This document shows, in pieces, positions 14,830 through 61,867 of a stretch of 64,000 nt of DNA; position 1 is the first letter of the stretch, and each line of letters begins with the position of its first letter. The notes beneath the pieces are model-generated. The model saw only the letters and a list, made by a program, of their open reading frames with translations. It did no database searches and was not told the DNA's origin. A program made the translations under genes and the position numbers. The DNA comes from an uncultured Sediminibacterium sp. (GTDB taxonomy: Bacteria > Bacteroidota > Bacteroidia > Chitinophagales > Chitinophagaceae), in the NCBI GenBank assembly GCA_964507525.1, contig CAZDQB010000005.1:45058-109057 (forward strand). The letters run 5' to 3'.

Positions 14830-14840
14830 ATAAAAAAAAT

Positions 14841-33134: not shown

Positions 33135-33141
33135 AAATTTG

Positions 33142-34314: not shown

Positions 34315-34333
34315 AAAAATTATAACGATTGCA

Positions 34334-36349: not shown

Positions 36350-37216
36350 TCAGGCTTCCACCTGGTATTGTTTTAGAAAATCTCTTGGTGATAATTTTTT
36401 TACTTCCTTGAAGTGTTTATTAAAGTTAGAGATGTTATTATAACCACTTTGGTAACAGGCTTCCGTAACATTGTGATTCCCTTCCAATAATAATTTTGCA
36501 GCATGGCTAATGCGTACCTCCTTTACAAAGTCGATCAGCGTGCGGTTGGTTTTTGATTTAAAGAACCGGCAGAAGGCTGCAGGAGACATGGGGATAATGC
36601 CCGCTACTTCCTGAAGCGAAATTTCTTTTTTAAAGTTTTGGAAAATATGATCGAATACTTTGTTTATTTTCTGCGCTTCACCTGAATTGTCGATAGCATT
36701 GTAATAAGGAGAGGATAAGATTTGTTTGGAATTGGATTGTGTAAGAATATCAAGGAGCCTTAACATCAGGGCCGCCCTGCCCAATCCTGTTTCCAGTAAC
36801 ATCTGTTGCATAACCATTTTTGCTTTTTCAATGGTTGAACCTGTAAACAGCATGCCCTTTGCCGCATTTGCAAACAGCTCATTTAACTGTTTACCTTCCG
36901 GTTTTCCCAATAATTGTTTGCCAAGAAAATCAGGAAAAAAATGAATTACAATTGCCCGTGCCTGTACAAATGGGTCAATCGTTTTATAGTATTGCCAGCA
37001 ATGCGGAAGATAACTTCCGAGTAATACGAGTTCCGTTCCTTCAAAGTCCTGTATATGATCGCCAATAAAGCGCTTTCCACTACAGTTTTCCAACAAGGCT
37101 ATTTCAAAATTTATATGCGATTTCAGTGTCGTGAATTTTTTTATCTCCAGGAACTCTGATCTTATCGTAAAAGACTGATCGGGGGGGAAGGTGAAATTCT
37201 CATAAAGGTATTGCAT
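36350..37216 (-). CDS. AraC-family transcriptional regulator
   Basis: 288 aa. C-terminal dual HTH: LQEVAGIIPMSPAAFCRFFKSKTNRTLIDFVKEVRISHAAKLLLEGNHNVTEACYQSGYNNISNFNKHFKEVKKLSPRDF. Divergent from the SusC at 37385. Confidence 0.88.
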   Translation of the reverse strand: MQYLYENFTFPPDQSFTIRSEFLEIKKFTTLKSHINFEIALLENCSGKRFIGDHIQDFEGTELVLLGSYLPHCWQYYKTIDPFVQARAIVIHFFPDFLGKQLLGKPEGKQLNELFANAAKGMLFTGSTIEKAKMVMQQMLLETGLGRAALMLRLLDILTQSNSKQILSSPYYNAIDNSGEAQKINKVFDHIFQNFKKEISLQEVAGIIPMSPAAFCRFFKSKTNRTLIDFVKEVRISHAAKLLLEGNHNVTEACYQSGYNNISNFNKHFKEVKKLSPRDFLKQYQVEA

Positions 37217-40300: not shown

Positions 40301-40483
40301 ATTGGCTACAATCTGCCCGCAAAATATTTAAATAAAATAAAGGTCAAAGGAATTAAGCTTTTTGCATCGGGAACAAATCTGTTTACCCTTTCCAAATTTA
40401 AATTCTACGATCCTGAAATTTCGGGTTTTATGAGTTACCCATTAATGAAAAACTTTTCAATGGGGATTGATGTGAGACTTTAA
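37385..40483 (+). CDS. SusC/RagA-family TonB-dependent outer-membrane transporter
   Basis: 1032 aa. Signal peptide, CarboxypepD_reg-like VKGAVTNKNKVPLSGATITEVG..STLSDANGSFQI. Plug motifs VVVGYGTQKK and ITVLKDAASAAIYGSRSSNGVILVTTKTG. Confidence 0.92.
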   Translation: MKNAKRLLWIIGILCMLFQTNYAQGPVTVKGAVTNKNKVPLSGATITEVGRQGRSTLSDANGSFQIATVLNSRLKITMIGYKEFEVVVKTQQLNIQLDAEVKELEEAVVVGYGTQKKASFTSAVSNIKASEITDIPTSNLSNVLAGRLSGTFVATNTGTPGISSTVRIRSNSSWNTAPPVYVIDGVVRDKQSFDALDPNEVAEITVLKDAASAAIYGSRSSNGVILVTTKTGKKGKPEIGFSAITNTSRTGKVPEYMDVSKALDYSIAVNGGISPEEKAWVLKNNPNGDNYFKAAYQNPNNQRYALSASGGGDMVTYYIGGSFYNENGFLPNVGFKKYNLRSNVSAKLTKDLTVNLNLSNSYGTRNRFNFTYDYGSADLNNLWGKLLYWDAWAPPYINGKPVDPGWLGNPVEMMKNGGYWKNNNQQLDALLSAEYKLPFVPGLSAKFAYSKNFNNSFVKNFAKKQPLYKFKTTGANNRIYTDEIISQTMSGDPGTEYIGNEYGRSNTYQLNGQLSYDHRFGEHNISATAVYEQWEAYYNNFSMYRYNFPLSPNDQFFAASANNSDWSTGGGEDQDGRLSYIGRINYDYAEKYFLSTSARYDGSVKFAPNKRWGLFPTLSGGWAISKENFFRNVKTLKFIDFMKLRFSYGSTGNDAIGGWQWLEQYRIQGGTYYLGQNGTTAPRLAFGGTPNANLTWEKSNSYNAGLDIVALKHLNLTVELWKRHTYDILGSRVLVLPSEYGASLPAVNYGIVDSKGIEIELGYNNTIGRDFEYRAKGNFGVSTNKVISRDAAQNAQFVDNPNGKTLSYGTGYQAIGIIRTQDELSKLPAGYKIFGATPELGMMNFADISGPDGKPDGKIDSYDRIVLGNYFGSNSAPITYGLQLNFSYKGISVDMLFAGLSGFKTSYSDAWGRNFGGGAKIPKYHDDAWSTDNPNGTTPKLFPWGDARSSGYTQTSTFNVYDGSFMRMKYLNIGYNLPAKYLNKIKVKGIKLFASGTNLFTLSKFKFYDPEISGFMSYPLMKNFSMGIDVRL

Positions 40484-40506
40484 TGTTTTAAACTAAAAAT
40501 GGAAAA

Positions 40507-42258
40507 ATGAAAGTTAAATCTTTAATATACAGTACAACCGTCCTTAGCTGCTTCCTGATGCTGGGTTCCTGTAATAAGGTGTTAGATAAATCTAATTTGG
40601 CAGCAGTTAATCCATCGCAGGTATGGAGTGATGCAAAGTATGCAAACGGATACCTGAATAATATTTATTCAGCTATGATGCCCGGTAATACCTATGGGTC
40701 GGGAAATGGTACCGACGAAGGAGTGCCTTATCAAAAACAAACCAACAGTTGGTTTATGGGAACAGGCACTTTTGATTCCTGGGACAACTTCGGTCAGTAT
40801 GGAAATATTCGCACGATTAATATTTTATTAGACAATATTGACAAAGCATCTTTTGATGAAACGTCTAAAAAAAGTATTAAAGGGCAGGGACTTTTCTGGA
40901 GGGCTTGGGCCTACTATTCTATGGTGAATGGTTATGGAGGCGTGCCTTTAATTCTTAAAGCACAAGAACCCACAACAGATTTAAGCTCCCTCGCAATGCC
41001 GCGAAGCAAAACTTCTGAATGTGTAACACAAATCATTAAAGATTTAGATGATGCTATCTCTTCGTTGCCCGATAACTGGAGCGGCGAAGATATCGGACGC
41101 ATAGACAAAGGAGCTGCCATGGCCTTTAAAGGAAGGGTGTTGTTGTTTTTTGCAAGCCCCTTGTTTAACGGATTGGGAGGTGTGGCCAGCTGGCAAAAAG
41201 CTTACGATGCAAATCTGGCAGCGAAAATTTTTTTAGAAGCTCATGGAAAAGGATTGCAGACGGCGTATAACAAGATCTGGGACGAAAAGTTGAATAAAGA
41301 AGTGATCATGGTGCGCCGCTTTAATTATCCGCAGGCTACCTATTTTCAGGGAGGTTTAATACCCCTCGATTTTTCAAAGGATGATGTTGGGTATGACCGT
41401 CCATCGCTGGAATTGGTAAATGCGTTTCCCATGAAAGATGGTTCAGCATGGTCGGATGTTCCAAGAGTTTATGATACTCTTTTCAGAAACAGGGATGATC
41501 GTTTTTATGAAACCATTTATTATAATGGATCACCTTATCAGTATCTGGCTGCAATGAAAGCTGCAAATACTTACTTGTGGACTTATTTTAATAAAGTAAC
41601 CGATTATAACGGCAATATTGGAATAATGGGACAGCACAATCAGATAACTCCTGATCCATTATGGTCTAACTCCAGCTTTTATAGAATTAAAGCAATTGAT
41701 AAAGTAAGTATTAAAGACAAGGGAACCGTATATAACGCGGCGGTTGACTGGCCCGAAATTAGATATGCGGAAGTGTTGATGAACTATGGTGAAGCTGCCA
41801 ATGAGTTGGGCAAAACAACAGAGGCATTGAGTGCCTTGTACGCAATACGTAACCGCGCAGGTATTCTGCCGGGGATGACTAACAATTATGGCATCACAGC
41901 CCAGACAACTGATGGTATCAGGACTGTGTACCAAAACGAACGATTTGTTGAATTTGCATTTGAAGGAAAAAGATGGAATGACCTGAGAAGATGGAAAATG
42001 TTTGGTTATTTAAGAGGTCTGCCCCAAAGGCATGGACTTGGTATTGAGTTGAAGGCAGGTGAAACTGATGTTGCGCCTATGGCCGATATTAATACAGTGT
42101 GGAATAAGTTTACTTATACCGTAATGCCAACCGACCGGCAGAATATAGCGGTGCAGGATCAATACTATATCTATGGTATTCCCAAAGCAAGGCTGGATAG
42201 GAATCCTAAATTGTTGCAAAATAATAACTGGAGCGGTAGTTTCGATCCCCTGCAATAA
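40507..42258 (+). CDS. SusD/RagB-family nutrient-binding lipoprotein
   Basis: Lipobox FLMLGSCNK. Blocks FWRAWAYYSMVNGYGGVPLI, RVLLFFASPLFN, ERFVEFAFEGKRWNDLRRW. Confidence 0.9.
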   Translation: MKVKSLIYSTTVLSCFLMLGSCNKVLDKSNLAAVNPSQVWSDAKYANGYLNNIYSAMMPGNTYGSGNGTDEGVPYQKQTNSWFMGTGTFDSWDNFGQYGNIRTINILLDNIDKASFDETSKKSIKGQGLFWRAWAYYSMVNGYGGVPLILKAQEPTTDLSSLAMPRSKTSECVTQIIKDLDDAISSLPDNWSGEDIGRIDKGAAMAFKGRVLLFFASPLFNGLGGVASWQKAYDANLAAKIFLEAHGKGLQTAYNKIWDEKLNKEVIMVRRFNYPQATYFQGGLIPLDFSKDDVGYDRPSLELVNAFPMKDGSAWSDVPRVYDTLFRNRDDRFYETIYYNGSPYQYLAAMKAANTYLWTYFNKVTDYNGNIGIMGQHNQITPDPLWSNSSFYRIKAIDKVSIKDKGTVYNAAVDWPEIRYAEVLMNYGEAANELGKTTEALSALYAIRNRAGILPGMTNNYGITAQTTDGIRTVYQNERFVEFAFEGKRWNDLRRWKMFGYLRGLPQRHGLGIELKAGETDVAPMADINTVWNKFTYTVMPTDRQNIAVQDQYYIYGIPKARLDRNPKLLQNNNWSGSFDPLQ

Positions 42259-42763: not shown

Positions 42764-44665
42764 ATGATCTCAAGATTCTTTTCTATCACACGCATTTCGT
42801 TTTTGATAACAGTTAGCTTCCTGGCTTTGAAAGTGCGTGCCCAGGATAGCCTGTCCCTTTCATCGCCTGACGGAAAAACAGTTTTTAGTTGCCAACTTGA
42901 TGAAAAAGGTGGCCTGTCATACCAGGTAACTTTTGCAGGGCAGCCGCTGGTACTTAAGTCTTCACTTGGAGTGGAGGGCTGGCAGCAATCTTTCGTATTA
43001 AAAAGAGTAGCAAGAAAAGAGCAGGATAACAACTGGAGACCGGTATATGGCGAACGGGCCCTGGTCATAGACAAGTACCGTGAGGCCAGTTTTGTGCTAT
43101 GGCGCCAAAACAAGGAGAGACAGCAAATGAACCTGCAGGTAAGGGCTTATAATGAAGGACTGGCTTTTCGCTACGTATTTCCTGAGTATCCTGAGGGCGG
43201 GCAGGATATTTCCATTGGAAAAGAATATACCAGTTTTGTGATGCCATCGGGAACAAAGGCCTGGTTTACCGATCATGCGCAAGGTGCCTATCAACTGCTT
43301 CCGTTACAAGCCTGGCCAGGCCAGGCAGAGCGACCGCTTACGATGCAGCTGCCTAATGGGAAATATGTGGCCATCGCAGAAGCCGGTTTGGCAGATTATG
43401 CACGCACCAAATTTTCTCTCGACGCTGCCGAACCCAACAACATCCGGTGCAGTATGTACGATCGGGTAGACCTTACCACTCCGTTTGCTACACCCTGGCG
43501 GGTGATCATGCCGGCAGAAAAACCAACCGGGTTATTGGCAAACAATGATATTTTTCTCAACCTGAATGAACCCTGCCAAATTGAACATACCAATTGGATA
43601 AAACCGGGTAAGATCATGCGTGAGGTGACCCTTTCAACCAAGGGTGCAAAAGAATTGGTTGACTTTGCGGTAAAACGCCACCTGCAGTATATTCATTTTG
43701 ATGCCGGATGGTATGGATTTGAATATGTCAAGGGTTCTGATGCTTCGGCGGTAAATGTTGATCCAAGACGCAACCCTAAAAAGGATCTGGATTTAACTGA
43801 GGTGATCCGTTATGCGAAGGAAAAAGGAATAAGTGTGTTCTTATATGTTAACCAACGGGCTTTGGAGCAGCAATTAGACCAATTGTTACCCCTATACCAG
43901 CAATGGGGCGTTGCAGGTATAAAATTCGGGTTTGTACATGTGGGGTCGCATCGCTGGACCACCTGGTTGCATGAAGCCATAAAAAAATGTGCACGGTATC
44001 ATTTGATGGTAGATATTCATGACGAATACAGGCCTACCGGTTTTAGCCGCACCTATCCTAACTTACTTACACAGGAAGGGGTGAGGGGTAATGAAGAAAT
44101 GCCGGAGGCCAATAACAATGCAGTACTTCCTTTCACTAGATTTTTATGCGGTGCAGCAGATTATACCATCTGCTATTATCACCGTCCCGAGTTAAAACGA
44201 CAGCTTGCTGAAACACAAAATGCAAGGGTGCTTAAGACTACTTCCATGCACCAGATGGCATTATCGGTTGTGTATTATAGTCCATTGCAATTTATGTATT
44301 GGTACGACAAGCCGGAAGATTCAAAAGATGAACCTGAGCTGGAATTTTTTGATCATGTTCCCACAATTTGGGATGATACAAAAGTGATGGATGGGGAAAT
44401 AGGCCAATTCATTACGGTTGCCCGACGCAGCGGTGAAGAATGGTTTTTGGGATCCATTACCAACAATGACGCAAGGGATATTAAGATTAATTTTTCTTTT
44501 TTAATGCCCGGAAGAAAATATAAAGCCACTGTCTATTACGACGATCCTACATCGTCAGTGCGCACCCGTGTTTCTATCAAGCACATTACGGTTGAAGCCT
44601 CAACGGTATTGGACACTCATTTGCTTGCATCCGGCGGACAAACCATCTGGGTTAAACCCCTTTAA
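42764..44665 (+). CDS. GH97 family glycoside hydrolase (alpha-glucosidase/alpha-galactosidase type), secreted
   Basis: Signal peptide ...SFLALKVRAQ. Blocks WIKPGK, YIHFDAGWY, WGVAGIKFGFV and MVDIHDEYRPTGFSRTYPNLLTQEGVRGNE match GH97 (SusB-like ...KPTGL.RTYPN..T.EGV.G.E). Confidence 0.82.
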   Translation: MISRFFSITRISFLITVSFLALKVRAQDSLSLSSPDGKTVFSCQLDEKGGLSYQVTFAGQPLVLKSSLGVEGWQQSFVLKRVARKEQDNNWRPVYGERALVIDKYREASFVLWRQNKERQQMNLQVRAYNEGLAFRYVFPEYPEGGQDISIGKEYTSFVMPSGTKAWFTDHAQGAYQLLPLQAWPGQAERPLTMQLPNGKYVAIAEAGLADYARTKFSLDAAEPNNIRCSMYDRVDLTTPFATPWRVIMPAEKPTGLLANNDIFLNLNEPCQIEHTNWIKPGKIMREVTLSTKGAKELVDFAVKRHLQYIHFDAGWYGFEYVKGSDASAVNVDPRRNPKKDLDLTEVIRYAKEKGISVFLYVNQRALEQQLDQLLPLYQQWGVAGIKFGFVHVGSHRWTTWLHEAIKKCARYHLMVDIHDEYRPTGFSRTYPNLLTQEGVRGNEEMPEANNNAVLPFTRFLCGAADYTICYYHRPELKRQLAETQNARVLKTTSMHQMALSVVYYSPLQFMYWYDKPEDSKDEPELEFFDHVPTIWDDTKVMDGEIGQFITVARRSGEEWFLGSITNNDARDIKINFSFLMPGRKYKATVYYDDPTSSVRTRVSIKHITVEASTVLDTHLLASGGQTIWVKPL

Positions 44666-44965: not shown

Positions 44966-47518
44966 ATGAAGTATTCCAATTGGCCCTTGCGGCGTTGCTG
45001 CTTTTGTGTAACATTATTGTTAGGATTTGGTACGCTTAATGCGCAAACCTATTATTTGCAAACACAATTTGCCAGGCTTAGCTTAAATGGCAAAGGCTAT
45101 ATCACCTCCATCATTGATAGAAAATCAGGAAAGGAATATTGTCCCAAAGGGGAGATGTCTCCGCTGCTTGCGTTACAGAAAAACAAGCAGCACCTTATGC
45201 CGGTGAAGGCACAGTATGTTGGTTCCAAAAATGAATTTTCCATCAGCTTCTCCAATGGCGCTGCGGCCCGGGTAAAAGTGGAACAAAAGCAGCAGTATCT
45301 GCGTTTGCAATTGGTTTCACTAACGCCTCGCAATGGCGTGGATAATGTGGTGTGGGGGCCTTATAAAACAAATATATCTAAAACGATCGGGGACCTGCTG
45401 TCTGTCGTGCGCAGTGATGTTTTTGCCATTGGCATGCTTGGCCTGAACGACAATACTACCATCGGACCACCTACGGAGGGCGATATGTCATTCATGTATT
45501 ATTACATTCATTCGCCAGATCCCCAAAAATATCCGGTACCACCGCATCTGAAAGAAGGTCAGACCTTCAGCATAGGTGGTGACGGGGTGAATGACGTGGC
45601 TTTTTACTCACAGCCAGAAGCGTATTTCAGGATGAACTATGGCAACGGTGCCAAACTGGAACCGGCATTCGGTTCAAGCATATGCATGCATTCTCGCGAC
45701 CGTCGTAAGGAACAGATGATTCGTTTTCCCTATTATCCTGACAATATTGAAGGCAAGGCCAATTCGGCCCGTTACCAGTTGGTGACACCCACAAATGCGG
45801 ATTTCCTTGGTTCAACCATTGCTTTGTATGCCTGTCCTGATTCATTGGGTCTGAACGTTATAGAAAAAATAGTATTGAATGAAGGGCTACCACATCCCAC
45901 CATTAATGGAAAATGGATAAAAAACCCTGCCGCTTATCGTCCCGATATGGCCTGGTGGGGGCCGCATGATAGCCTTGCCAGTTATGCAAAACAACTGAAG
46001 ATCAAAAATGTGCAGGATGAAGGCTGGGGGGAGTATTATCCCAACCCGGTCAACCGATGGAGTAATAAAAAGATCAGCTTCCATGGTTCAGACGCTATGA
46101 GTATTCCCGCATACGGAACGCTCATGCAAAAGGAAGGGGTCCGTTACGGATTACACACGCTTTGCGAATTCCTGCAGCCCAACAACAACAGTGATGTGAC
46201 GCCGGTGCCTAGCGACAGTCTCGCTATCATGCAGCGTACCTACCTTACAAAGAATATTTCACCCAACGATACCATCATCACGGTGAGGGACACTGCCTAT
46301 TTCAACGAGTTTGGTGGTTGGGAAGGCAATCATACCAACGTGCTTAAGATTGGTAAGGAGCTAATTGAGTATGATGGGATCACCAGGATACCTCCCTACA
46401 CTTTTCTTAAAGTGAAAAGAGGTTTCCACCATACGATACGCGGCACCTATAAAGCAGGAACTACGATCGTGAAGCTGCAGCCCAACTGTTACCGTGGATT
46501 TGTACCTGATATGAACCTGCAGGATGTTTACGCCGATTATTATGGCAAATGGCTCACAGAAGGAAGCATGGATTATATCGATTTTGATGGTCTGGAAAGT
46601 TGTATGTACCAGGGGCATGGCCAGTATTCCTTTAAGCGATTTTTCCGCGGCCTGTTCGACAGCTATTATCGCAATGGTGGCAAATACCTGCGCGTGATGG
46701 GCAGTGCCGTGCAGGAGGGCAGTTGGCATTACATGAGTGTATGCAATGTTGGGGGCGGCGATCACATGTTCAGCCCTATACTCAACAAATGGGGCATTGA
46801 AGGAAAAGATATGCGTTACGTGTTCGAGAGCAGTTATTTCCCCGCTACATTCGGCATTCAAAATTACCAGGTCGACTGGAACCTGTATGATGCAGAGAAC
46901 CTGCAGGCCAAATCAATCGGCTGGAATGCCACTTATATGCTTGGACTTAGCCAGCAAACTGTGGAAGCCAATGCGGAGAAAGGGGCCATCTTCAATGCTT
47001 ACCGTACCTGGGAAGAGGCACGGGAGGCCGGGGTATTTACCAAAGCCCGCAAAGAAAAGCTCAAAGACCTCAACTACAAATTTCATTTGGAAAAGGCAGG
47101 AAACAAATCTTTCTTGCTGTACGCGGTAAAAGAAAACCGTTTCAGAGATATGGCTTTGAATACAAACAATGTGGAAGTAACCTTGATGAATGAGTTCGAT
47201 GCTCAGCCATTGGCTTTTGCGTTAAAAGTGCACGCGCCAAAAGATTCAACTATCAATGGGTTAGAGATCATAGTGGGCAATAGCTCGTTCATCAAAGTGC
47301 AGAAAAAATTATATGCTGGCCAGTATGTGATCTGTAAGAATGGCCAGTGGTATGTTGCCGATCAAGGACGCAAAATGATCGAGCTAATTCCGGCGACTGG
47401 AGACTGGCAGCTCCCTAAAGGGCAAACCCGGGTGCTGGTGAAATCATTGCATTCAAACCCGGAAAATGTGAAGCTGGAACTGGTAGTGCTGGTGATAGGG
47501 AGCGCTGAAAAGATTTAG
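44966..47518 (+). CDS. Secreted protein of unknown family (850 aa); paralog of 47590-50064; candidate glycoside hydrolase
   Basis: Signal peptide ...LLLGFGTLNAQ. Colinear similarity to the next ORF: VKVEQKQQYLRLQLVSL / VKVQQQENYLSFELVGL; VWGPY / LWGPY; LPHPTINGKW / LPHPLLDGKW; GLHTL / GVHTL; IDFDGLESC / LSFDGLEGC; FHLEKAG / FHLEMAG. Confidence 0.8.
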   Translation: MKYSNWPLRRCCFCVTLLLGFGTLNAQTYYLQTQFARLSLNGKGYITSIIDRKSGKEYCPKGEMSPLLALQKNKQHLMPVKAQYVGSKNEFSISFSNGAAARVKVEQKQQYLRLQLVSLTPRNGVDNVVWGPYKTNISKTIGDLLSVVRSDVFAIGMLGLNDNTTIGPPTEGDMSFMYYYIHSPDPQKYPVPPHLKEGQTFSIGGDGVNDVAFYSQPEAYFRMNYGNGAKLEPAFGSSICMHSRDRRKEQMIRFPYYPDNIEGKANSARYQLVTPTNADFLGSTIALYACPDSLGLNVIEKIVLNEGLPHPTINGKWIKNPAAYRPDMAWWGPHDSLASYAKQLKIKNVQDEGWGEYYPNPVNRWSNKKISFHGSDAMSIPAYGTLMQKEGVRYGLHTLCEFLQPNNNSDVTPVPSDSLAIMQRTYLTKNISPNDTIITVRDTAYFNEFGGWEGNHTNVLKIGKELIEYDGITRIPPYTFLKVKRGFHHTIRGTYKAGTTIVKLQPNCYRGFVPDMNLQDVYADYYGKWLTEGSMDYIDFDGLESCMYQGHGQYSFKRFFRGLFDSYYRNGGKYLRVMGSAVQEGSWHYMSVCNVGGGDHMFSPILNKWGIEGKDMRYVFESSYFPATFGIQNYQVDWNLYDAENLQAKSIGWNATYMLGLSQQTVEANAEKGAIFNAYRTWEEAREAGVFTKARKEKLKDLNYKFHLEKAGNKSFLLYAVKENRFRDMALNTNNVEVTLMNEFDAQPLAFALKVHAPKDSTINGLEIIVGNSSFIKVQKKLYAGQYVICKNGQWYVADQGRKMIELIPATGDWQLPKGQTRVLVKSLHSNPENVKLELVVLVIGSAEKI

Positions 47519-47589
47519 TGTCAATAAGAAACCGTACGGCTCCCGGCGCATTTGTGCAGGTAGGGGGCCGGTTAAACTGAAATAACGAA

Positions 47590-50064
47590 ATGATTAAGAA
47601 AAGTTTGACTGATAAAGTGCTGTGGTGCTTCCTGCTGATTTTTTCGGGGATAGTACAATTGCAGGTAAATGCACAGGTTAATTTTAAAACCCGGCAATGG
47701 AGCCTGCAATTGGATGCTTCAGGTAAGCTAACCAGTATGAAGAGCATTAAGCTGCAGAAAGAATTTCTGGTGGCGGATAAAGCTGCGGCATTGATGAGCA
47801 TAAAAACGGATGGAAAAATACTGGCACCCCAAAGCAGCGTGTGGAAGGCAAAAAACTCGGAGTTGATCTTGACATACCCGAAGGTTGGGGTAGAAGCAAG
47901 GGTAAAAGTGCAGCAGCAGGAAAACTACCTGAGCTTTGAACTAGTCGGGTTGACAAAGGCTGAAACAATTGATTTAATATTGTGGGGTCCATATCCTACC
48001 AGTATAGCCGATACGGTGGGAGAAGTGGTGGGCGTTGTGCGCAACAAAGATTTTGCGATCGGTATCCAGGCGCTGAATGTAAAAACGCTGGGTGGTTATC
48101 CCAATGCGGAAAGCGACATTGAGCCATCGTATGATGTGTTTGCAGGAGGCAACAAAGTGGATGTGAAGCAGGATGACATGCACAAGCAATTGTTCCGGGG
48201 CGATGTGGCCCGTCCCACCGAATACGGTTCTGTACTTCAGGCATATTGCCGTAACAGGAACAAGACCCGGGTCATTGAAAATTGGGGACATACATCTTAT
48301 CTGGCGCCGGCATTTAATGATGGAGGTGTACTGGGCAGTAAGATCGCCCTTTTCGGAGTGGCTGATGCCGATGCGTTGTCAACAATTTCACAGATAGAAC
48401 TGAAGGAAGGATTGCCTCATCCCCTGCTTGACGGCAAATGGGGAAAGCAGGCCGTCACGGCCTCCGAATCCTACCTTATCATGGATTTTGGGGTTGATAA
48501 TCTACAGGAGGCGATGGCAGTAACCCGGCAGGCGGGACTTCGTTATCTCTATCATGGCGATCCCTTTGAAACCTGGGGACACTTTAAGTTACACAGCAAA
48601 GCATTTCCGCAAAACTGGGCCAGTATGAAACAGTGCGTGGCAATGGCCAGGGAAAAAGGATTGAGACTGGGTGTTCACACTTTGTCCAACTTTATTACTA
48701 CCAACGATCCCTATGTGACCCCCCTACCTGATGCCCGCCTCGCGAAAGTGGGTTATACAAGGCTTAGTGCAGCCGTTGATGCCAACGCAAAGGAAATCGG
48801 AATTGAAGATCCTGTTTTTTTTAACCAGTTTCAAAACAATACACTGAAGGCGGCTGAGATCGGCAATGAAATCATTCGGTATGGTGCGGTGTCCGCATCA
48901 ACTCCCTGGAAACTGCTCGATTGCCAGCGGGGGGTCTTTGGTACTAACGCTGCGGAACACTCGAAAAGTGATACGATCGGCAAACTGATGGATCATCCTT
49001 ACAAAGTATTTCTTACCAGTTATGCACTGCAGGAAGAAATGGCAAAGACCATTGCGCGGCTCTTTAATGAAACGGGTCTGATGCAGCTATCTTTTGACGG
49101 ACTTGAAGGTTGTTGGTCTTCTGGTATGGGCCAATACGCCAGGCACCTATTTACGAAAACCTGGTACGATAATCTTAAACCTGAATTGAAAGGAGCAGTG
49201 ATTAATGATGCCAGCATGCCGGGTCATTACTTCTGGCATATTTATACAAGAATGAACTGGGGCGAACCCTGGTATGCCGGCTTTAGGGAAAGCCAGCTGC
49301 AATTGCGTCTCAAAAACCAACAGTTCTTCCGCCGCAACCTGATGCCTGCCATGCTGGGTTGGTTCAGCCTTCGTCCAGAAACCACACCCGAAGATATAGA
49401 ATGGATGCTAGCCATGGGCGCCGGTTATCATGCGGGCTTTGGCTTATCAACCAGTTTGGAAACATTGCGTAAACATGGAAAGAAAGATGAGATGCTTGCA
49501 CTGATAAAAATATGGGAACAGGTACGCATGAACAGCCTATTTAGCGAAACACAAAAAGAACGCATGCGGAGCCTGAGGAACGAATTTCACCTGGAGATGG
49601 CCGGCGATCATGCTTATAAACTAACCCCGGTGTACAACGCTTACTTCAAACACACCCAGCAATTGAAGCAGCCCGGCGAGCCCGTGTTTTCTACTTTTAC
49701 TTTTAATAATCCAGCTACCACTCAGCCTGCTGCTTTTATTATTACGCTGGCGACTGGTAAAGAATTCGATCCGGACGTCAGTTTCGATCAAATATCCATA
49801 GCTATCAACCGGCAGGACGCATTAGCACTACCGGTGAGTTTGAAAAGGAATCAGATCTTAAAATGCGATGGTAAATCGGTGCAGTTATACAACAAACAGT
49901 GGCAGTTGCTGCAAACCGTTGCGTTAAACAAGTGTTTACCCAATTTAAACAATGGCATAAACGAAATTGTTTTCGATGGAAAATATTCTGGCGAAAACGG
50001 GGCTGATGTGAAACTGGAGATTCGCGTCAACGGTGAGCCGGAGCTAATTCAGAAAAAACAATAA
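47590..50064 (+). CDS. Secreted protein of unknown family (824 aa); paralog of 44966-47518
   Basis: Signal peptide ...IFSGIVQLQVNAQ. See the shared blocks listed for 44966-47518. Confidence 0.8.
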   Translation: MIKKSLTDKVLWCFLLIFSGIVQLQVNAQVNFKTRQWSLQLDASGKLTSMKSIKLQKEFLVADKAAALMSIKTDGKILAPQSSVWKAKNSELILTYPKVGVEARVKVQQQENYLSFELVGLTKAETIDLILWGPYPTSIADTVGEVVGVVRNKDFAIGIQALNVKTLGGYPNAESDIEPSYDVFAGGNKVDVKQDDMHKQLFRGDVARPTEYGSVLQAYCRNRNKTRVIENWGHTSYLAPAFNDGGVLGSKIALFGVADADALSTISQIELKEGLPHPLLDGKWGKQAVTASESYLIMDFGVDNLQEAMAVTRQAGLRYLYHGDPFETWGHFKLHSKAFPQNWASMKQCVAMAREKGLRLGVHTLSNFITTNDPYVTPLPDARLAKVGYTRLSAAVDANAKEIGIEDPVFFNQFQNNTLKAAEIGNEIIRYGAVSASTPWKLLDCQRGVFGTNAAEHSKSDTIGKLMDHPYKVFLTSYALQEEMAKTIARLFNETGLMQLSFDGLEGCWSSGMGQYARHLFTKTWYDNLKPELKGAVINDASMPGHYFWHIYTRMNWGEPWYAGFRESQLQLRLKNQQFFRRNLMPAMLGWFSLRPETTPEDIEWMLAMGAGYHAGFGLSTSLETLRKHGKKDEMLALIKIWEQVRMNSLFSETQKERMRSLRNEFHLEMAGDHAYKLTPVYNAYFKHTQQLKQPGEPVFSTFTFNNPATTQPAAFIITLATGKEFDPDVSFDQISIAINRQDALALPVSLKRNQILKCDGKSVQLYNKQWQLLQTVALNKCLPNLNNGINEIVFDGKYSGENGADVKLEIRVNGEPELIQKKQ

Positions 50065-50084: not shown

Positions 50085-52703
50085 ATGAAGAAACTGGTAT
50101 TCAGTATTTTGTTGAGCTGCTTCGGCATTAGCCTGCTTCAGGCTCAGACGTACAAAACTTATCCCATGTGGCATGCTTCCCTGCCCATTGAGCAGCGCGT
50201 GAACGATTTGGTTAGTCGATTGACACTGGAAGAAAAAGTGGCGCAGATGTTGAACGCAGCGCCGGCGATACCTCGCCTGGGTGTGCCTGCTTATGAGTGG
50301 TGGAATGAAATATTGCATGGAGTGGCACGTACTCCCTATAAAACTACCGTGTTTCCACAAGCTATTGGTATGGCTGCAACATGGGATACTGCTTCGCTTA
50401 AACTGATGGCACATTACTCGGGTATGGAAGGGCGAGCCATTAACAACAAAGCCGTTGCTGAAGGAAAAACCAAAGACCGCTACCACGGACTTACTTACTG
50501 GACACCCAACATCAATATCTTCCGTGATCCCAGATGGGGAAGGGGACAGGAGACCTACGGAGAAGATCCGTTCCTTACAGCAAAATTAGGCGCTGCATTT
50601 GTTCGGGGCTTACAAGGCGATGATCCGAACTACCTGCTGGCTGCCGCATGTGCTAAACATTATGCGGTACATAGCGGACCAGAGCCAAGCAGGCATACCG
50701 ATAACCTCAATCCCTCTTCCTATGATTTGTGGGATACCTACTTGCCTGCTTTTAAAGAGCTGGTGGTTAAGGCAAAAGTGGCCGGCGTTATGTGTGCTTA
50801 CAATGCGCTAAATGGCCAACCCTGTTGTGGCAATGATCTGCTGATGACGGATATTTTGCGTAACCAGTGGAAGTTTACCGGTTATGTAACCAGCGACTGC
50901 TGGGCTATTGATGATTTCGTGAAGTTTCATAAAACACATGCCACAAGAGTATCGGCCGCTGCCGATGCAGTGATGCATGGGACCGATGTGGAATGTGGAA
51001 CAGCGGTGTATAAAACGCTCGTAGATGCGGTGAGACAGGGACTTATTTCCGAAAAGCAGATTGATCTGTCGCTGAAACGTTTATTTACCATTCGCTATCG
51101 CCTTGGTATGTTCGATCCGCCGCAAAAGGTGAAATACACGAATATACCTTTTAGCACTTTGGAAGCGCCAGAACACAAAGCGCATGCATTGAAAATGGCG
51201 CAGCAGTCGATCGTATTGCTGAAAAATGAACACCAGTTGTTACCTCTTCATAAGCATATCAAAAAGATTGCAGTCATTGGCCCGAATGCCGATAATCGCA
51301 TTGCGCTGCTGGGCAATTACAATGGCTTCCCTTCCCGCATCGTATCGCTGTTAGAAGGTATTAAAGAGAAATTTGGTCCAGCTGTGGCCGTGCAATATCA
51401 GGCTGGTGTCGGTTATACTTCCGATGTTTTGTTTACACCCGACATGGATGCTTCATTTTATTCCTTCAATCGGAAAGCGGGTATCCAGGCGCAATATTTT
51501 AACAATGAAAAGCTAGAAGGAAAACCTGACTATGAAACTACGCTTAGCGATATTAATTTTTATTACACCGAAGGTCAGCAACCTGCGCCTGCCGTGAATG
51601 CCCGTCATTTTTCTGTACGCTTTACTTCTATGGTTACCATAAACAAAGATACTACACTGCTATGGCAAATGGAAGGCGATGACGGTTACCGGCTTTTCAT
51701 CAACGACAGCCTGGTGCTGAATGCATGGCGTGGTGAAACTGCCGTACGCGATTTTAAATGGAAAGCGCAGCAGGGTAAAACGTATAAAATGGTATTGGAG
51801 TACTGGCAAAGCGAAGATGGCGCCCGGGTTCGTATGCAGAAGGGTTCATATAAAAAAGCGGATATGGCTGCGATTGCAACAAAAGCTGCCGATGCCGATG
51901 TAATCGTTTTTGCTGGCGGCATTTCGCCCGAGTTGGAAGGAGAGGAAATGTCTGTAAATGCTTCCGGTTTTTACGGTGGCGACCGCACATCAATACTGCT
52001 GCCGGCTGTGCAAACGGAATTAATGAAACAATTAAAAGCTACTGGCAAACCGGTGGTGTTTGTGATGCTTGCCGGCAGTGCGATAGCTACTACCTGGGAG
52101 CAGGAAAATATTCCCGCCATTGTAAATGCCTGGTATGGCGGACAAAGTGCCGGAACCGCCATTGCCGATGTATTGTTTGGCGATTACAATCCTGGAGGTC
52201 GCCTGCCTGTTACATTTTATAAGCGTGATGCAGACCTGCCCGACTTTAAGGATTATAACATGGAAGAACATACGTATCGTTACTTCAAAGGCGAGGTGTT
52301 GTATCCTTTTGGTTATGGACTGAGCTATACTACTTTCAACTACGGAAAATTAAATGTGCGGAAGGAAGTTAAAAAAGAAGCATCCGTTATTGTTTCAACC
52401 AGGGTGACCAATACGGGTAAGTATGATGGAGATGAGGTGGTACAGTTGTACCTGTCTTACCCCGATGTAAAAGGAAAAGCGCCTGTCCGTGCATTGAAAG
52501 GATTTCAGCGTATTCATTTGAGGAAAGACGAAACAAAACGGATGCAGTTTGTGCTTGGCCCCGAACAGTTGATGTTGGTAAATGAAGCGGGACAATTGTA
52601 CCAACCAGCCGGAAAATTATTGATTAGTGTTGGTGGAGGGCAGCCCGGCATGAAACAAACAGGTGCGTCTCCTGTAGTACAAGAGACCGTACAAATTAAG
52701 TAA
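50085..52703 (+). CDS. GH3 family beta-glycosidase (beta-glucosidase/xylosidase type) with an inserted PA14 domain
   Basis: Signal peptide ...GISLLQAQ. GH3 blocks NIFRDPRWGRGQETYGEDP, KHYAVHSGPE and GYVTSDCWAI (nucleophile Asp). The PA14-like insert is GIQAQYFNNEKLEGKP...MEGDDGYRLFINDSLVLNAW. C-terminal Fn3-like domain VVQLYLSYP...ALKGFQRIHL. Confidence 0.88.
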   Translation: MKKLVFSILLSCFGISLLQAQTYKTYPMWHASLPIEQRVNDLVSRLTLEEKVAQMLNAAPAIPRLGVPAYEWWNEILHGVARTPYKTTVFPQAIGMAATWDTASLKLMAHYSGMEGRAINNKAVAEGKTKDRYHGLTYWTPNINIFRDPRWGRGQETYGEDPFLTAKLGAAFVRGLQGDDPNYLLAAACAKHYAVHSGPEPSRHTDNLNPSSYDLWDTYLPAFKELVVKAKVAGVMCAYNALNGQPCCGNDLLMTDILRNQWKFTGYVTSDCWAIDDFVKFHKTHATRVSAAADAVMHGTDVECGTAVYKTLVDAVRQGLISEKQIDLSLKRLFTIRYRLGMFDPPQKVKYTNIPFSTLEAPEHKAHALKMAQQSIVLLKNEHQLLPLHKHIKKIAVIGPNADNRIALLGNYNGFPSRIVSLLEGIKEKFGPAVAVQYQAGVGYTSDVLFTPDMDASFYSFNRKAGIQAQYFNNEKLEGKPDYETTLSDINFYYTEGQQPAPAVNARHFSVRFTSMVTINKDTTLLWQMEGDDGYRLFINDSLVLNAWRGETAVRDFKWKAQQGKTYKMVLEYWQSEDGARVRMQKGSYKKADMAAIATKAADADVIVFAGGISPELEGEEMSVNASGFYGGDRTSILLPAVQTELMKQLKATGKPVVFVMLAGSAIATTWEQENIPAIVNAWYGGQSAGTAIADVLFGDYNPGGRLPVTFYKRDADLPDFKDYNMEEHTYRYFKGEVLYPFGYGLSYTTFNYGKLNVRKEVKKEASVIVSTRVTNTGKYDGDEVVQLYLSYPDVKGKAPVRALKGFQRIHLRKDETKRMQFVLGPEQLMLVNEAGQLYQPAGKLLISVGGGQPGMKQTGASPVVQETVQIK

Positions 52704-52771
52704 ACGCATAGGGATAGGAATCTATGTTTGAAAACAACCAATTCTATTTTGTGCATATTAATAAGAATCAA

Positions 52772-61858: not shown

Positions 61859-61867
61859 ACAGCAGCA

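What the first reader, a model, noticed from the sequence alone, without database searches (positions are those of the whole stretch)
44966..50064. Tandem paralogous ~830-aa secreted proteins of no recognisable family at the core of a PUL
Two adjacent genes encode signal-peptide proteins that are colinear homologs but clearly diverged. Shared blocks include VWGPY/LWGPY, LPHPxxxGKW, G(L/V)HTL, (D/S)FDGLE(S/G)C and FHLExAG. They sit between a GH97 and a GH3, downstream of SusC/SusD, where PULs normally carry the backbone-cleaving enzyme. I cannot assign them to any CAZy family from motifs. The conserved FDGLE and HTL strand-end motifs are the kind of acidic signatures seen at TIM-barrel active sites. 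This is my best candidate for an undescribed glycoside hydrolase or lyase family in the window.
Basis: partly seen in the sequence, partly recalled or inferred. Interest (0 to 1): 0.72.

Follow-up and report, generated by a model that had tools for sequence, protein, structure and literature searches.

The report
Two orphan TIM-barrel glycosidase-like paralogs
Two adjacent secreted proteins in a sugar-harvesting gene cluster belong to a very large, widespread bacterial family that no domain library names. Its predicted shape is that of enzymes that cut alpha-linked sugars, so it is a good candidate for an undescribed glycoside hydrolase family.

Summary
ORFs 44966-47518 (A, 850 aa) and 47590-50064 (B, 824 aa) are colinear paralogs (25% identity, E 2e-72). 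Both have signal peptides and carry all the quoted motifs. They lie in the order SusC-SusD-GH97-A-B-GH3-orphan794-GH110.

Neither matches Pfam, NCBIfam or any PDB sequence, even as a 46-sequence profile. The family is large: 2,446 clusters at 50% identity, across Bacteroidota, Verrucomicrobiota, Planctomycetota, KSB1, Acidobacteriota and Paenibacillus. Some members are fused to CBM32-like or LamG modules.

AlphaFold (pLDDT 87) predicts an N-terminal beta-sandwich, a linker helix, a (beta/alpha)8 barrel with a roughly 110-residue beta-domain inserted after strand 3, and C-terminal beta-sandwiches. The best full-length structural matches are GH101, GH36, GH129, GH31 and GH13.

The Asp of FDGLE follows barrel strand 4, which is the nucleophile position in those families. 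The His of HTL ends strand 3. An invariant Glu and Arg sit on the inserted domain.

Family members recur beside alpha-galactosidases of several families, fucosidases, sulfatases and a second orphan protein.

My best reading is a new GH36/GH101-like family of retaining glycosidases that is mostly periplasmic. Its specificity is unknown. I could not check CAZy or dbCAN, so prior classification is not excluded.

The parts
44966..47518 (+). Gene A: 850-aa secreted protein, the 'A-type' subfamily of the orphan family
   Evidence: ORF and translation. No Pfam, NCBIfam or PDB hit. At least 907 homologs, all named 'hypothetical'.
44966..45043 (+). A signal peptide (aa 1-26, MKYSNWPLRRCCFCVTLLLGFGTLNA|Q), type I, no lipobox
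   Evidence: Read from the sequence.
45884..47071 (+). A predicted (beta/alpha)8 barrel region, about aa 307-702. Boundaries are approximate and transferred from B by alignment.
   Evidence: Alignment of A to B and the AlphaFold model of B. A itself was not modelled.
46148..46162 (+). A GLHTL motif (His397), equivalent to the end of barrel strand 3 in B
   Evidence: His is present in 53/53 A-type, 56/56 B-type and 75/97 diverse representatives.
46358..46360 (+). A Glu465, the invariant Glu of the inserted beta-domain (equals B Glu427)
46583..46597 (+). A FDGLE motif. Asp541 is the predicted catalytic nucleophile; Glu544 is also conserved.
47590..50064 (+). Gene B: 824-aa secreted protein, the 'B-type' subfamily. 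Orthologs share 47-87% identity across several phyla.
47590..47673 (+). B signal peptide (aa 1-28, ...VQLQVNA|Q), type I
47677..48363 (+). B N-terminal beta-sandwich domain (aa 30-258). It carries the WGPY motif and is the most variable domain in distant relatives.
   Evidence: AlphaFold secondary structure. Distant representatives match mainly from about profile position 225 onwards.
48364..48408 (+). B linker helix (aa 259-273) leading to the conserved EGLPHPxxDGKWxK segment
   Evidence: Glu273, Trp284 and Lys286 are nearly invariant.
48409..49575 (+). B (beta/alpha)8 barrel (aa 274-662). Strands fall at about 295-297, 319-322, 359-365, 499-503, 538-542, 588-593 and 616-620.
   Evidence: AlphaFold models: full length, pLDDT 87.2; domain only, pLDDT 82.6. 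Foldseek matches to TIM-barrel enzymes.
48670..48684 (+). B GVHTL motif (His363) at the C-terminal end of barrel strand 3
48685..49020 (+). B beta-rich domain inserted between barrel strand 3 and its following helix (aa 366-477). It carries the invariant Glu427, Arg447, Thr452 and Tyr471.
   Evidence: A weak Pfam Rcc01698_C hit appears in 18/46 members. The insertion is at the same position as in pyruvate kinase.
49093..49107 (+). B FDGLE motif. Asp503 comes right after strand 499-502 and is the predicted nucleophile; Glu506 is also conserved.
   Evidence: hhalign pairs this Asp with the K-x-D Asp of a GH36-like family.
49207..49209 (+). B Asp540 just after strand 5 (Glu584 in A), one candidate general acid/base
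   Evidence: Asp in 56/56 B-type, Glu in 52/53 A-type, Asp or Glu in 53/97 representatives
49576..50061 (+). B C-terminal beta-sandwich region (aa 663-824)
52724..55108 (+). Orphan 794-aa protein, a recurrent partner of A or B in at least six genera. Possibly an (alpha/alpha)6-barrel enzyme.
   Evidence: No Pfam, NCBIfam or PDB hit. Weak GH76, GH127 and GlcNAc-2-epimerase hits. Co-occurrence is shown.
55431..57242 (+). GH110-type alpha-1,3-galactosidase-like gene, a recurrent partner of the family
   Evidence: Pfam GLAA-B barrel domains plus beta-helix. Orthologs lie next to A or B in L011, L013, L063 and L091.
42764..44665 (+). GH97 gene directly upstream of A. Whether it is an alpha-glucosidase or an alpha-galactosidase is not resolved.
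50085..52703 (+). GH3 gene with a PA14 insert, 20 nt downstream of B
37385..42258 (+). SusC/SusD-like transporter pair of this locus
   Evidence: The Pseudarcicella pair, 56% and 65% identical, is directly followed by an A ortholog.
36350..37216 (-). AraC-family regulator, conserved with A in Chitinophaga oryzae (74% identity)
32232..35896 (+). Aldo-keto reductase, enolase-superfamily enzyme and Na+/solute symporter: a likely oxidative catabolic module for a released sugar. It is conserved next to an A ortholog in C. oryzae.

Best explanation
A and B are two old subfamilies of one large, uncharacterised family of secreted glycoside hydrolases. Most members are probably periplasmic.

Each protein is built like GH36, GH101, GH129 and GH31 enzymes. 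It has an N-terminal beta-sandwich, a linker helix, a (beta/alpha)8 catalytic barrel and C-terminal beta-sandwiches. In addition, a conserved beta-domain of about 110 residues is inserted after barrel strand 3 and probably covers the active site.

I infer a retaining, double-displacement mechanism. The Asp of the FDGLE motif (B Asp503, A Asp541), at the end of strand 4, would be the nucleophile.

The general acid/base is not settled. The candidates are:
- the acidic residue after strand 5 (B Asp540, A Glu584);
- the invariant Glu on the inserted domain (B Glu427, A Glu465);
- Glu506/Glu544 of the FDGLE motif itself.

The His of HTL, Trp284/Lys286, Trp549-His550 and Arg447 would bind substrate.

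The two proteins probably cut different linkages in oligosaccharides imported through SusC/SusD. They would act together with exo-alpha-galactosidases (GH110 and possibly GH97 here), GH3 and the orphan 794-aa protein. The target would be a heteroglycan carrying alpha-galactose, and fucose or sulfate in other lineages.

What is shown: homology, fold prediction, conservation and gene neighbourhoods. What is inferred: hydrolase activity, the catalytic residues, stereochemistry, cellular location and substrate.
For: - Paralogy is clear: E 2e-72.
- The family is large and conserved. There are 2,446 clusters at 50% identity, and B orthologs share 47-50% identity across phyla.
- The AlphaFold model is confident: pLDDT 87.2, pTM 0.84.
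- Full-length Foldseek hits with probability 1.0 are GH101 (E 4e-15), GH36 galactosaminidase and alpha-galactosidases (6e-14 to 2e-10), GH129 (5e-12), GH31 and GH13. By my own knowledge, all of these are retaining enzymes with an Asp nucleophile after strand 4.
- Asp503 directly follows strand 499-502, and His363 ends strand 359-365.
- Asp503 is Asp in 201 of 206 aligned members, and Glu427 is Glu in 205 of 206.
- Profile-profile alignment to a GH36-like orphan family pairs Asp503 with the Asp of that family's K-x-D motif. The score is 44.4 (P 3.4e-4), against 16-19 for reversed controls.
- Long members are fused to F5/8-type-C (CBM32-like), LamG and NEW3 modules, as carbohydrate-active enzymes often are.
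- Family members sit right after SusC/SusD in many loci. In Larkinella, one is the only enzyme of a SusC/SusD locus.
- Neighbours across 87 loci include sulfatases (18 loci), GH29 (11), GH20 (10), GH109 (8) and a GH36-like family (9).
- Close relatives sit beside GH110, GH27, GH97, GH95 and GH2.
- About 90% of members have type-I signal peptides.
Against: - No sequence-level link to any glycoside hydrolase family reaches significance in Pfam, NCBIfam or PDB searches.
- Foldseek TM-scores are low: at most 0.40 for the full-length model and at most 0.42 for the barrel alone.
- For the barrel alone, the lowest E-values go to pyruvate kinases, because they share the insertion after strand 3. The barrel is therefore not close to any solved glycosidase.
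- I could not read model coordinates. Whether the conserved residues line one pocket is untested.
- No acid/base candidate is clean. Asp540/Glu584 is acidic in only about half of the distant representatives, and Glu559 is absent from A-type proteins.
- The small-profile hhalign run found nothing, and the larger run reaches only 38% probability.
- Neighbourhoods are heterogeneous, so no single substrate emerges.
- A 2026 screen of more than 400 PUL proteins lists an 'unk' 85-kDa protein (ZOBELLIA_335) next to a new alpha-galactosidase and reports no activity for it. If that protein is a B ortholog, which I could not verify, the family resisted a broad substrate panel.
Confidence: 0.55

Rival explanations
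1. A and B belong to a CAZy family that already exists but is not yet represented in Pfam, NCBIfam or the PDB. It would be a recently created family or one pending in a preprint. On this reading the family is known and only looks orphan with the libraries available here.
For: CAZy numbering had passed GH195 by 2026. A May 2026 preprint created four families from PUL 'unknowns'. One of them, GH_New2, is an alpha-galactosidase family with the same three-domain layout, remotely related to GH36/GH27, and found in Zobellia, Bacteroides ovatus, Sedimentisphaera and Paenibacillus. Two UniRef entries of B orthologs are already titled 'Glycoside hydrolase'. I could not run dbCAN or CAZy BLAST.
Against: - The defining active-site motifs of GH_New2 are Lys435-x-Asp437 and Asp345-Asp346. 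Neither is in A or B, which have S/D-F-D at the nucleophile motif.
- GH_New2 proteins are about 80 kDa, and the family had only 92 non-redundant GenBank sequences.
- A 690-aa family with DDGW and FKLDG motifs fits GH_New2 better. It is a separate gene adjacent to B orthologs.
- That family aligns to the A/B family only at 38% hhalign probability.
- GH174 and GH187, the fucanases found in similar contexts, have beta-sheet folds rather than barrels.
- All named A and B homologs in the two searches are 'hypothetical', apart from the two UniRef 'Glycoside hydrolase' titles among B homologs.
Confidence: 0.2
2. The barrel carries out a different chemistry on glycans or sugars. Candidates are a transglycosylase, an inverting hydrolase with Glu residues as the catalytic pair, an endo-acting alpha-L-fucanase or galactanase of GH29/GH107/GH168 type with an Asp/His pair, or a non-hydrolytic sugar-modifying enzyme.
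For: - Several invariant carboxylates and a His remain unassigned: Glu273, Glu427, Glu506, Glu604 and Trp549-His550.
- By my own knowledge, GH107 fucanases use an Asp/His pair, and here His550 lies 47 residues after Asp503.
- Sulfatases and GH29 are frequent neighbours.
- Weak Pfam hits to the xylose-isomerase-like TIM barrel (5 of 46 members) and to GH71 (3 of 46) appear.
- The barrel alone is not close to any glycosidase structure.
Against: - The full-length architecture matches GH101, GH36, GH129 and GH31 best.
- GH107, GH29 and GH168 structures are not among the top 50 matches.
- The proteins are secreted and PUL-encoded, which argues against a cytoplasmic-type isomerase.
- The weak Pfam hits are all far below their thresholds.
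Confidence: 0.15
3. A and B are non-catalytic glycan-binding or scaffold proteins of the PUL, of the SusE/F or SGBP type, that have kept an inactive barrel.
For: In several loci a family member lies directly after SusD, the usual place for surface glycan-binding proteins. No activity has been shown for any member.
Against: - About 90% of members lack a lipoprotein signal.
- Sequence conservation is far higher than is typical for SGBPs: 47-50% identity across phyla, with invariant Asp, Glu, Arg and His at strand ends.
- Members occur outside Bacteroidota without SusC/SusD.
- Members are themselves fused to carbohydrate-binding modules.
Confidence: 0.07

Closest known systems
GH36 / GH27 alpha-galactosidases and alpha-N-acetylgalactosaminidases (clan GH-D), including the GH36 galactosaminidase of Flavonifractor plautii (PDB 8x1b, 9awt)
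   Same: [quoted passage not shown] Both have an Asp directly after barrel strand 4. GH36 gives the highest TM-score for the isolated barrel (0.42) and E 6e-14 for the full-length model. A and B orthologs also sit next to GH27, GH110 and GH36-like alpha-galactosidase genes.
   Different: There is no Melibiase HMM hit. The K-x-D and DD-x-W signature motifs are missing. A and B have an extra 110-residue beta-domain after strand 3 and a larger C-terminal region. Structure-based identity is only 8-11%.
GH101 endo-alpha-N-acetylgalactosaminidases (EngBF 2zxq; SpGH101 3ecq, 5a55)
   Same: These are the best full-length structural matches (E 4e-15 to 1e-11, probability 1.0) and share the multidomain layout around a barrel. 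By my own knowledge, GH101 has an Asp nucleophile after strand 4 and an acid/base about 32 residues later. That spacing resembles Asp503 to Asp540.
   Different: TM-scores are only 0.26-0.40 and identity is 9%. No GH101 HMM hit was found. GH101 enzymes are much larger, Gram-positive, surface-exposed proteins. The acid after strand 5 is not universally conserved in the A/B family.
GH129 (the Zobellia 3,6-anhydro-D-galactosidase, PDB 5opq)
   Same: There is a structural match at E 5e-12, and GH129 is PUL-encoded in Bacteroidota. The neighbouring orphan 794-aa protein gives weak GH127-like hits. The neighbouring enolase-superfamily enzyme is closest to a 3,6-anhydro-L-galactonate cycloisomerase. 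By my own knowledge, this set of hits loosely echoes the Zobellia carrageenan regulon.
   Different: There is no sequence-level match. The source organisms are mostly soil Chitinophagaceae, where anhydro-galactans are not expected. The echo rests on weak hits only.
'GH_New2' alpha-galactosidases (B2K_10610, zobellia_334, Bovatus_03161, STSP1_01769; bioRxiv 10.64898/2026.05.19.726164)
   Same: [quoted passage not shown] Both are remotely GH36-like, found in PULs with GH29, GH95, GH97, GH3 and sulfatases, and occur in overlapping phyla.
   Different: GH_New2 has Lys435-x-Asp437, Asp345-Asp346, Asp470, Thr472 and Asn492. Its proteins are about 80 kDa and the family holds only 92 sequences. A and B lack these motifs, are 92-96 kDa by my estimate from their lengths, and belong to a far larger family. 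The protein family that does fit GH_New2 is a different gene adjacent to B orthologs.
GH13 alpha-amylase family and pyruvate kinase (topology only)
   Same: Both have a beta-domain inserted between barrel strand 3 and helix 3. By my own knowledge, this is 'domain B' of GH13 and of pyruvate kinase. GH13 also has a His at the end of strand 3 and an Asp after strand 4.
   Different: There is no sequence similarity. The conserved GH13 regions are absent. Pyruvate kinase is a cytoplasmic phosphotransferase, so that match reflects shared topology and not function.

Membership tests
GH36 / GH27 (clan GH-D) | Significant match to the family HMMs (Pfam Melibiase PF02065, Melibiase_2 PF16499) | tested here: not met
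   No hit at E<=1 for A, for B or for any of 46 family members. No PDB GH36 or GH27 sequence was hit by the family profile at E<=10.
GH36 / GH27 (clan GH-D) | (beta/alpha)8 barrel with flanking beta-sandwich domains | tested here: met
   AlphaFold model. Foldseek against GH36 gives E 6e-14, and the barrel alone gives TM 0.42.
GH36 / GH27 (clan GH-D) | Nucleophile Asp in a K-x-D motif after strand 4, and a DD-x-W motif after strand 2 | tested here: not met
   An Asp is present after strand 4, but in S-F-D (B) or D-F-D (A). There is no Lys and no DDxW. A neighbouring 690-aa family does carry both motifs.
GH36 / GH27 (clan GH-D) | Alpha-galactosidase or alpha-GalNAc-ase activity with retention | not testable with these tools
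   This needs enzyme assays.
GH101 | Sequence match to the GH101 catalytic domain | tested here: not met
   No Pfam hit. No PDB GH101 chain was found by phmmer or the family profile.
GH101 | Close structural similarity of the catalytic domain | tested here: inconclusive
   GH101 gives the best full-length Foldseek E-values (4e-15), but TM is only 0.26-0.40 and RMSD is about 20 A over multidomain alignments. GH101 is not among the top 50 hits for the barrel alone.
GH101 / GH129 / GH13 type active site | Asp nucleophile after strand 4 plus a carboxylate acid/base after strand 5 | tested here: inconclusive
   Asp503/Asp541 is conserved in 201 of 206 members. Asp540 (B) / Glu584 (A) follows strand 5 but is acidic in only 53 of 97 distant representatives. 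No coordinates were available to check the geometry.
GH_New2 (2026 preprint) | Lys435-x-Asp437, Asp345-Asp346, Asp470/Thr472/Asn492 active-site set | tested here: not met
   The motifs are taken and are absent from A and B.
GH_New2 (2026 preprint) | Direct sequence similarity to the founding members (AFH61168.1, CAZ94407.1, ALJ47769.1, ARN57364.1) | not testable with these tools
   These sequences and PDB entries 29RM and 29SO are not in the libraries available here. As a proxy, hhalign to the GH36-like 690-aa family gives only 38% probability.
GH174 / GH187 endo-fucanases | Beta-sheet-dominated catalytic fold | tested here: not met
   The literature describes beta-sheet folds for both families. 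A and B are predicted to be barrels.
SusE/F-like surface glycan-binding proteins | Lipoprotein signal peptide, tandem beta-sandwich modules only, low sequence conservation | tested here: not met
   A and B have type-I signal peptides, as do about 90% of members. They have a barrel core and high conservation.
Polysaccharide lyases | A known lyase fold and a uronate-processing gene context | tested here: not met
   By my own knowledge, a (beta/alpha)8 barrel is not a known lyase fold. No lyase hits appeared in Pfam or Foldseek. No uronate-pathway genes were seen in the neighbourhoods.
Any current CAZy family (dbCAN HMMs, CAZy BLAST) | Significant hit to a CAZy family model | not testable with these tools
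   Neither dbCAN nor the CAZy sequence sets are available here. Pfam, NCBIfam and PDB served as partial substitutes.

The most novel reading that the evidence does not exclude
A and B would found a new glycoside hydrolase family, a distant relative of clan GH-D and of GH101/GH129. Its active site would be completed by an invariant Glu/Arg pair on a beta-domain inserted after barrel strand 3. Together with the equally orphan 794-aa partner and exo-alpha-galactosidases, the family would form a conserved, cross-phylum module for a heteroglycan linkage that has no assigned enzyme today. One example would be an endo-acting cleavage in alpha-galactose-capped, fucosylated or sulfated glycans from fungi, algae or animals.
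Probability: 0.4. Interest if true: 0.75.

Novelty: new variant of a known kind. Interest (0 to 1): 0.58.

Why it matters
If this is right, thousands of 'hypothetical' PUL proteins gain a fold, a testable catalytic residue and a set of partner enzymes. These proteins occur in soil, marine and gut Bacteroidota, Planctomycetota, Verrucomicrobiota and Paenibacillus.

A family this large, this conserved, and this often placed right after SusC/SusD probably handles a common glycan linkage that current CAZyme annotation misses. That gap would bias substrate predictions for many PULs, including those ascribed to fucoidan or mucin-like glycans.

The window also offers a compact experimental system: A, B, the orphan 794-aa protein, GH110, GH97 and GH3, apparently under an AraC-type regulator.

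Tried and rejected
1. Pfam, NCBIfam and PDB sequence searches with single sequences and a 46-sequence profile gave only noise.
2. I asked whether the third large orphan, the 794-aa protein, is another paralog. It is not.
3. I considered identity with the new GH_New2 alpha-galactosidase family. I rejected it on active-site motifs, protein size and family size, and because a different neighbouring family fits GH_New2 better. I could not obtain the founder sequences, so this was not a direct test.
4. I considered GH174 and GH187 fucanases because of the sulfatase and GH29 context. I rejected them because the literature describes beta-sheet folds for both. GH195 is GH99-like and unrelated.
5. A barrel-only model was meant to sharpen the family assignment. 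Instead, the lowest E-values went to pyruvate kinases. That was useful only for showing where the insertion sits.
6. I tried to infer the substrate from GH97, GH3 and the enolase-superfamily neighbour. GH97 is equally distant from alpha-glucosidases and alpha-galactosidases. GH3 falls between beta-glucosidases and beta-xylosidases. The enolase-family enzyme reaches no equivalog threshold.
7. The terminator and promoter scan did not exceed chance.
8. Literature searches for a characterised member found none.
9. Model coordinates are not exposed. I therefore could not check whether the conserved residues cluster in one pocket.

Full report
**Observation.** The two ORFs are real and sit exactly where reported: A at 44966-47518 (850 aa) and B at 47590-50064 (824 aa), both on the + strand. 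BLASTP aligns them end to end at 25% identity, 45% positives and E 2e-72. Every quoted motif is present: WGPY, LPHPxxxGKW, G(L/V)HTL, FDGLE and FHLExAG. Both N-termini are type-I signal peptides, ending ...LNA|Q and ...VNA|Q. The gene order is AraC-type regulator (- strand), SusC, SusD, GH97, A, B, GH3 with PA14, an orphan 794-aa protein, then GH110. Intergenic gaps are 71 nt (A-B), 20 nt (B-GH3) and 20 nt (GH3-orphan794). That is compatible with co-transcription. The terminator scan shows nothing above chance.

**No library names the family.** Pfam-A and NCBIfam give no hit for A or B, and none for 46 family members scanned individually at E<=1. PDB sequence searches with each protein and with a 46-sequence profile return only noise. 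Among the listed homologs that carry a name, all are 'hypothetical' apart from two UniRef records titled 'Glycoside hydrolase'.

**The family is large and widespread.**
- At least 2,356 (B) and 907 (A) clusters at 90% identity pass E<=1e-3 in searches that scored only the first 8,000 candidates.
- A profile search of 1.84 billion representatives finds 2,446 clusters at 50% identity, 753 of them below 1e-30.
- A scan of one genome per species finds at least 490 relatives.
- B orthologs of 47-87% identity occur in all major orders of Bacteroidota and in Verrucomicrobiota, Planctomycetota, KSB1 and Acidobacteriota.
- More distant members occur in gut Millionella and in Paenibacillus.
- Long members are fused to F5/8-type-C (CBM32-like), LamG and NEW3 modules, the usual appendages of carbohydrate-active enzymes.

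A and B are old subfamilies and not a local duplication. Each has orthologs at 65-87% identity elsewhere, and other genomes keep only one of the two in the same block. Other family pairs in tandem also occur, for example in Maribellus and Solitalea.

**Predicted fold.** AlphaFold2 on a 46-sequence alignment gives a confident model of B, with pLDDT 87.2 and pTM 0.84. Its parts are:
- a beta-sandwich (residues 30-258);
- a linker helix (259-273);
- a (beta/alpha)8-type barrel (about 274-662);
- a beta-rich domain (366-477) inserted between the strand ending in GVHTL and the next barrel helix;
- C-terminal beta-sandwiches (663-824).

**Structural matches.** Foldseek of the full model against the PDB gives probability-1.0 matches to GH101 endo-alpha-GalNAc-ases (E 4e-15), GH36 galactosaminidase and alpha-galactosidases (6e-14 to 2e-10), the Zobellia GH129 (5e-12), GH31 and GH13. 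TM-scores are at most 0.40 because the alignments span several domains.

A barrel-only model (pLDDT 82.6) gives its lowest E-values to pyruvate kinases (1e-7) and its highest TM-scores to GH36 (0.42). By my own knowledge, pyruvate kinase and GH13 both carry a 'domain B' inserted after strand 3. This result therefore fixes strand 359-365 as strand 3 and strand 499-502 as strand 4. It also shows that the barrel is not close to any solved glycosidase.

**Conserved residues.** In an alignment of 56 B-type, 53 A-type and 97 diverse representatives, the near-invariant polar residues are as follows, in B/A numbering:
- Glu273/306, Trp284/317 and Lys286/319;
- His363/397, at the end of strand 3;
- Glu427/465, Arg447/485, Thr452/490 and Tyr471/509, all on the inserted domain;
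- Asp503/541 and Glu506/544, the FDGLE motif immediately after strand 4;
- Trp549-His550, Arg566, Glu604/644 and Trp642.

An acidic residue follows strand 5: Asp540 in all B-type and Glu584 in 52 of 53 A-type proteins, but it is acidic in only about half of the distant representatives.

B-type proteins carry extra charged or polar residues: Glu270, Asp373, His457, Glu559, Asn583 and Glu601. In A-type proteins these positions are Val, Asn, Tyr/Phe, Ser/Asn, Ser and Tyr. That pattern suggests the two subfamilies have different subsite specificities.

**Mechanistic inference.** By my own knowledge, the nucleophile in GH13, GH27, GH31, GH36, GH101 and GH129 is an Asp right after strand 4. Asp503/541 occupies that position. 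Independent support comes from a profile-profile comparison with a 690-aa family that lies next to B orthologs in marine genomes.
- That family has the clan GH-D signatures DDGW and F-K-L-D-G.
- Its profile weakly hits GH36 and GH27 PDB chains at those motifs.
- Some of its members are named alpha-galactosidase by NCBI.
- hhalign of 60 A/B-family sequences against 60 of these scores 44.4 (P 3.4e-4, 38% probability), against 16-19 for reversed controls.
- Its best-supported barrel segment aligns Asp503 with the Asp of the K-x-D motif.
- A smaller profile comparison had found nothing, so this link is suggestive only.

I therefore propose a retaining hydrolase with Asp503/541 as nucleophile. The acid/base cannot be assigned without coordinates, which the tools do not expose. 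The candidates are Asp540/Glu584, Glu427/465 and Glu506/544.

**Location.** About 90% of full-length members, including A and B, have type-I signal peptides, and about 10% have a lipobox. By my own knowledge of Bacteroidota PULs, that suggests periplasmic processing of imported oligosaccharides rather than cleavage at the cell surface.

**Gene neighbourhoods.** I analysed 87 loci, mostly B orthologs, by ORF clustering and Pfam annotation of the cluster representatives. The recurrent neighbours were:

| Neighbour | Loci |
|---|---|
| SusC/SusD | 23-26 |
| Sulfatases | 18 |
| Anti-sigma FecR | 18 |
| Orphan 929-aa protein | 12 |
| GH29 | 11 |
| GH20 | 10 |
| DUF2961 | 9 |
| GH36-like 690-aa family | 9 |
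| GH109 | 8 |
| GH123-like | 5 |

In Larkinella the B ortholog is the only enzyme of an ECF-sigma/FecR/SusC/SusD locus, and that locus is flanked by TldD/PmbA peptidase pairs.

Close relatives of the window show a tighter regulon:
- Terrimonas pollutisoli: SusC, SusD, orphan794, a 270-aa ORF, GH110, B.
- Solitalea: B, an A-like protein, A, orphan794.
- Mucilaginibacter: SusC, SusD, A, orphan794.
- Niabella: GH2, GH97, A, GH3, orphan794, GH110, GH95.
- Chitinophaga oryzae: SusC, SusD, A, GH27, aldo-keto reductase, enolase-superfamily enzyme, SSF symporter, RhaM-like protein, AraC regulator, orphan794.
- Pedobacter: A, an AraC-family regulator, then a 76%-identical ortholog of the window's GH38-like protein.

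Much of the 64-kb window therefore recurs next to A or B elsewhere, which suggests one co-functional supercluster: GH2, a GDSL protein, GH95, a second SusC/SusD pair, GH38-like proteins, the reductase/enolase/symporter trio and this PUL.

Alpha-galactosidases or candidates from four families lie next to family members in different lineages: GH110, GH27, the GH36-like family and possibly GH97. This suggests a glycan capped with alpha-galactose. It also suggests that A and B do something other than simple exo-alpha-galactosidase work. The substrate remains unknown. GH97, GH3 and the enolase-family enzyme could not be typed.

**Comparison with known families.** The closest described system is the 'GH_New2' alpha-galactosidase family of a May 2026 preprint. 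It has the same three-domain layout, is placed in clan GH-D, and is found in PULs rich in GH29, GH95, GH97, GH3 and sulfatases. A and B lack its Lys-x-Asp, Asp-Asp and Asp/Thr/Asn residues. They are larger and belong to a much bigger family. The neighbouring 690-aa family fits GH_New2 better.

In Zobellia the GH_New2 gene (ZOBELLIA_334) is followed by an 'unk' 85-kDa protein with no activity reported. That mirrors the order '690-aa gene, then B ortholog' in Arenibacter and Kriegella. I could not verify that the two genes are orthologous.

GH174 and GH187 fucanases are excluded by fold. Membership of GH36, GH27, GH101, GH129, GH13 and GH31 fails at the sequence level.

**Verdict.** This is a credible candidate for an uncharacterised glycoside hydrolase family of a known architectural kind. 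It has a specific, testable nucleophile, the Asp of FDGLE rather than the Glu. It also has an unusual conserved inserted domain.

Three things remain unproven. No activity has been shown for any member. The substrate is unknown. Absence from the current CAZy classification could not be tested here.

Noticed in passing
window 52724-55108 (+): A 794-aa secreted protein with no Pfam, NCBIfam or PDB match. It is not a paralog of A or B. Orthologs at 64-85% identity accompany A or B in Terrimonas, Solitalea, Mucilaginibacter, Niabella and Chitinophaga oryzae. Weak sub-threshold hits to GH76, the GH127 catalytic domain and GlcNAc 2-epimerase hint at an (alpha/alpha)6 barrel. It is a second candidate for an orphan carbohydrate-active enzyme family.
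   Followed up: partly
window 44758-44824 (GH97-A intergenic region): Three perfect tandem 11-mers, GAGACATGGAT, AAGACATGGAT and GAGACATGGTT, lie at 44792-44824. An inverted copy with one mismatch lies at 44758-44768. The window holds 11 matches, against 4.2 expected by chance. This may be a regulator binding site or an internal promoter element in front of A.
   Followed up: partly
loci L045, L056, L058, L067, L071, L076, L079 (e.g. L076:7844-9916): A 690-aa family with no Pfam hit carries the clan GH-D motifs DDGW and F-K-L-D-G. It lies directly beside B orthologs in marine Bacteroidota. Its profile weakly hits GH36 and GH27 structures, and NCBI names some members alpha-galactosidase. It may be the 'GH_New2' family of the 2026 preprint.
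   Followed up: partly
window 32232-35896 (+): An aldo-keto reductase, an enolase-superfamily enzyme and a Na+/solute symporter lie just upstream of the AraC regulator. The same trio, at 47-65% identity, follows an A ortholog in Chitinophaga oryzae, together with a RhaM-like protein. The enolase-family enzyme's best PDB relative is a 3,6-anhydro-L-galactonate cycloisomerase (E 3e-33). It reaches no NCBIfam equivalog threshold. This looks like an oxidative sugar pathway of unknown specificity.
   Followed up: partly
window 4948-8355 (+) and 17514-19682 (+): A 1,135-aa protein has only a C-terminal GDSL esterase domain recognised, leaving about 900 residues unassigned. Relatives lie next to B orthologs in L011 and L023. 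A 722-aa protein after the first SusC/SusD pair has no Pfam or NCBIfam hit at all.
   Followed up: no
window 19768-22446 (+) and 28565-31960 (+): Two divergent GH38-N-domain proteins are present. One also matches DUF5054. The other has an N-terminal 'PL4 domain III / CBM-like' module. A 76%-identical ortholog of the first lies one gene downstream of an A ortholog, after an AraC-family regulator, in Pedobacter.
   Followed up: no
window 60581-63793 (+): An AcrB-type RND pump is split into two in-frame ORFs. They cover Pfam ACR_tran positions 2-419 and 418-1019. A stop codon at 61856-61858 separates them, followed by three codons and an ATG. This could be a nonsense mutation or pseudogene, a sequencing error, or a naturally split pump.
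   Followed up: partly
locus L002 (Larkinella arboricola), 1-15710: A minimal locus of ECF sigma, FecR, SusC, SusD and a B ortholog is flanked on both sides by TldD/PmbA peptidase pairs. This hints at a glycopeptide or glycoprotein substrate in that lineage.
   Followed up: no
window 23507-26221 (+): A 904-aa protein has a ROK-family sugar kinase/regulator match only in its first 160 or so residues. Its 3' end overlaps the start of the following MFS sugar transporter ORF by 20 nt.
   Followed up: no
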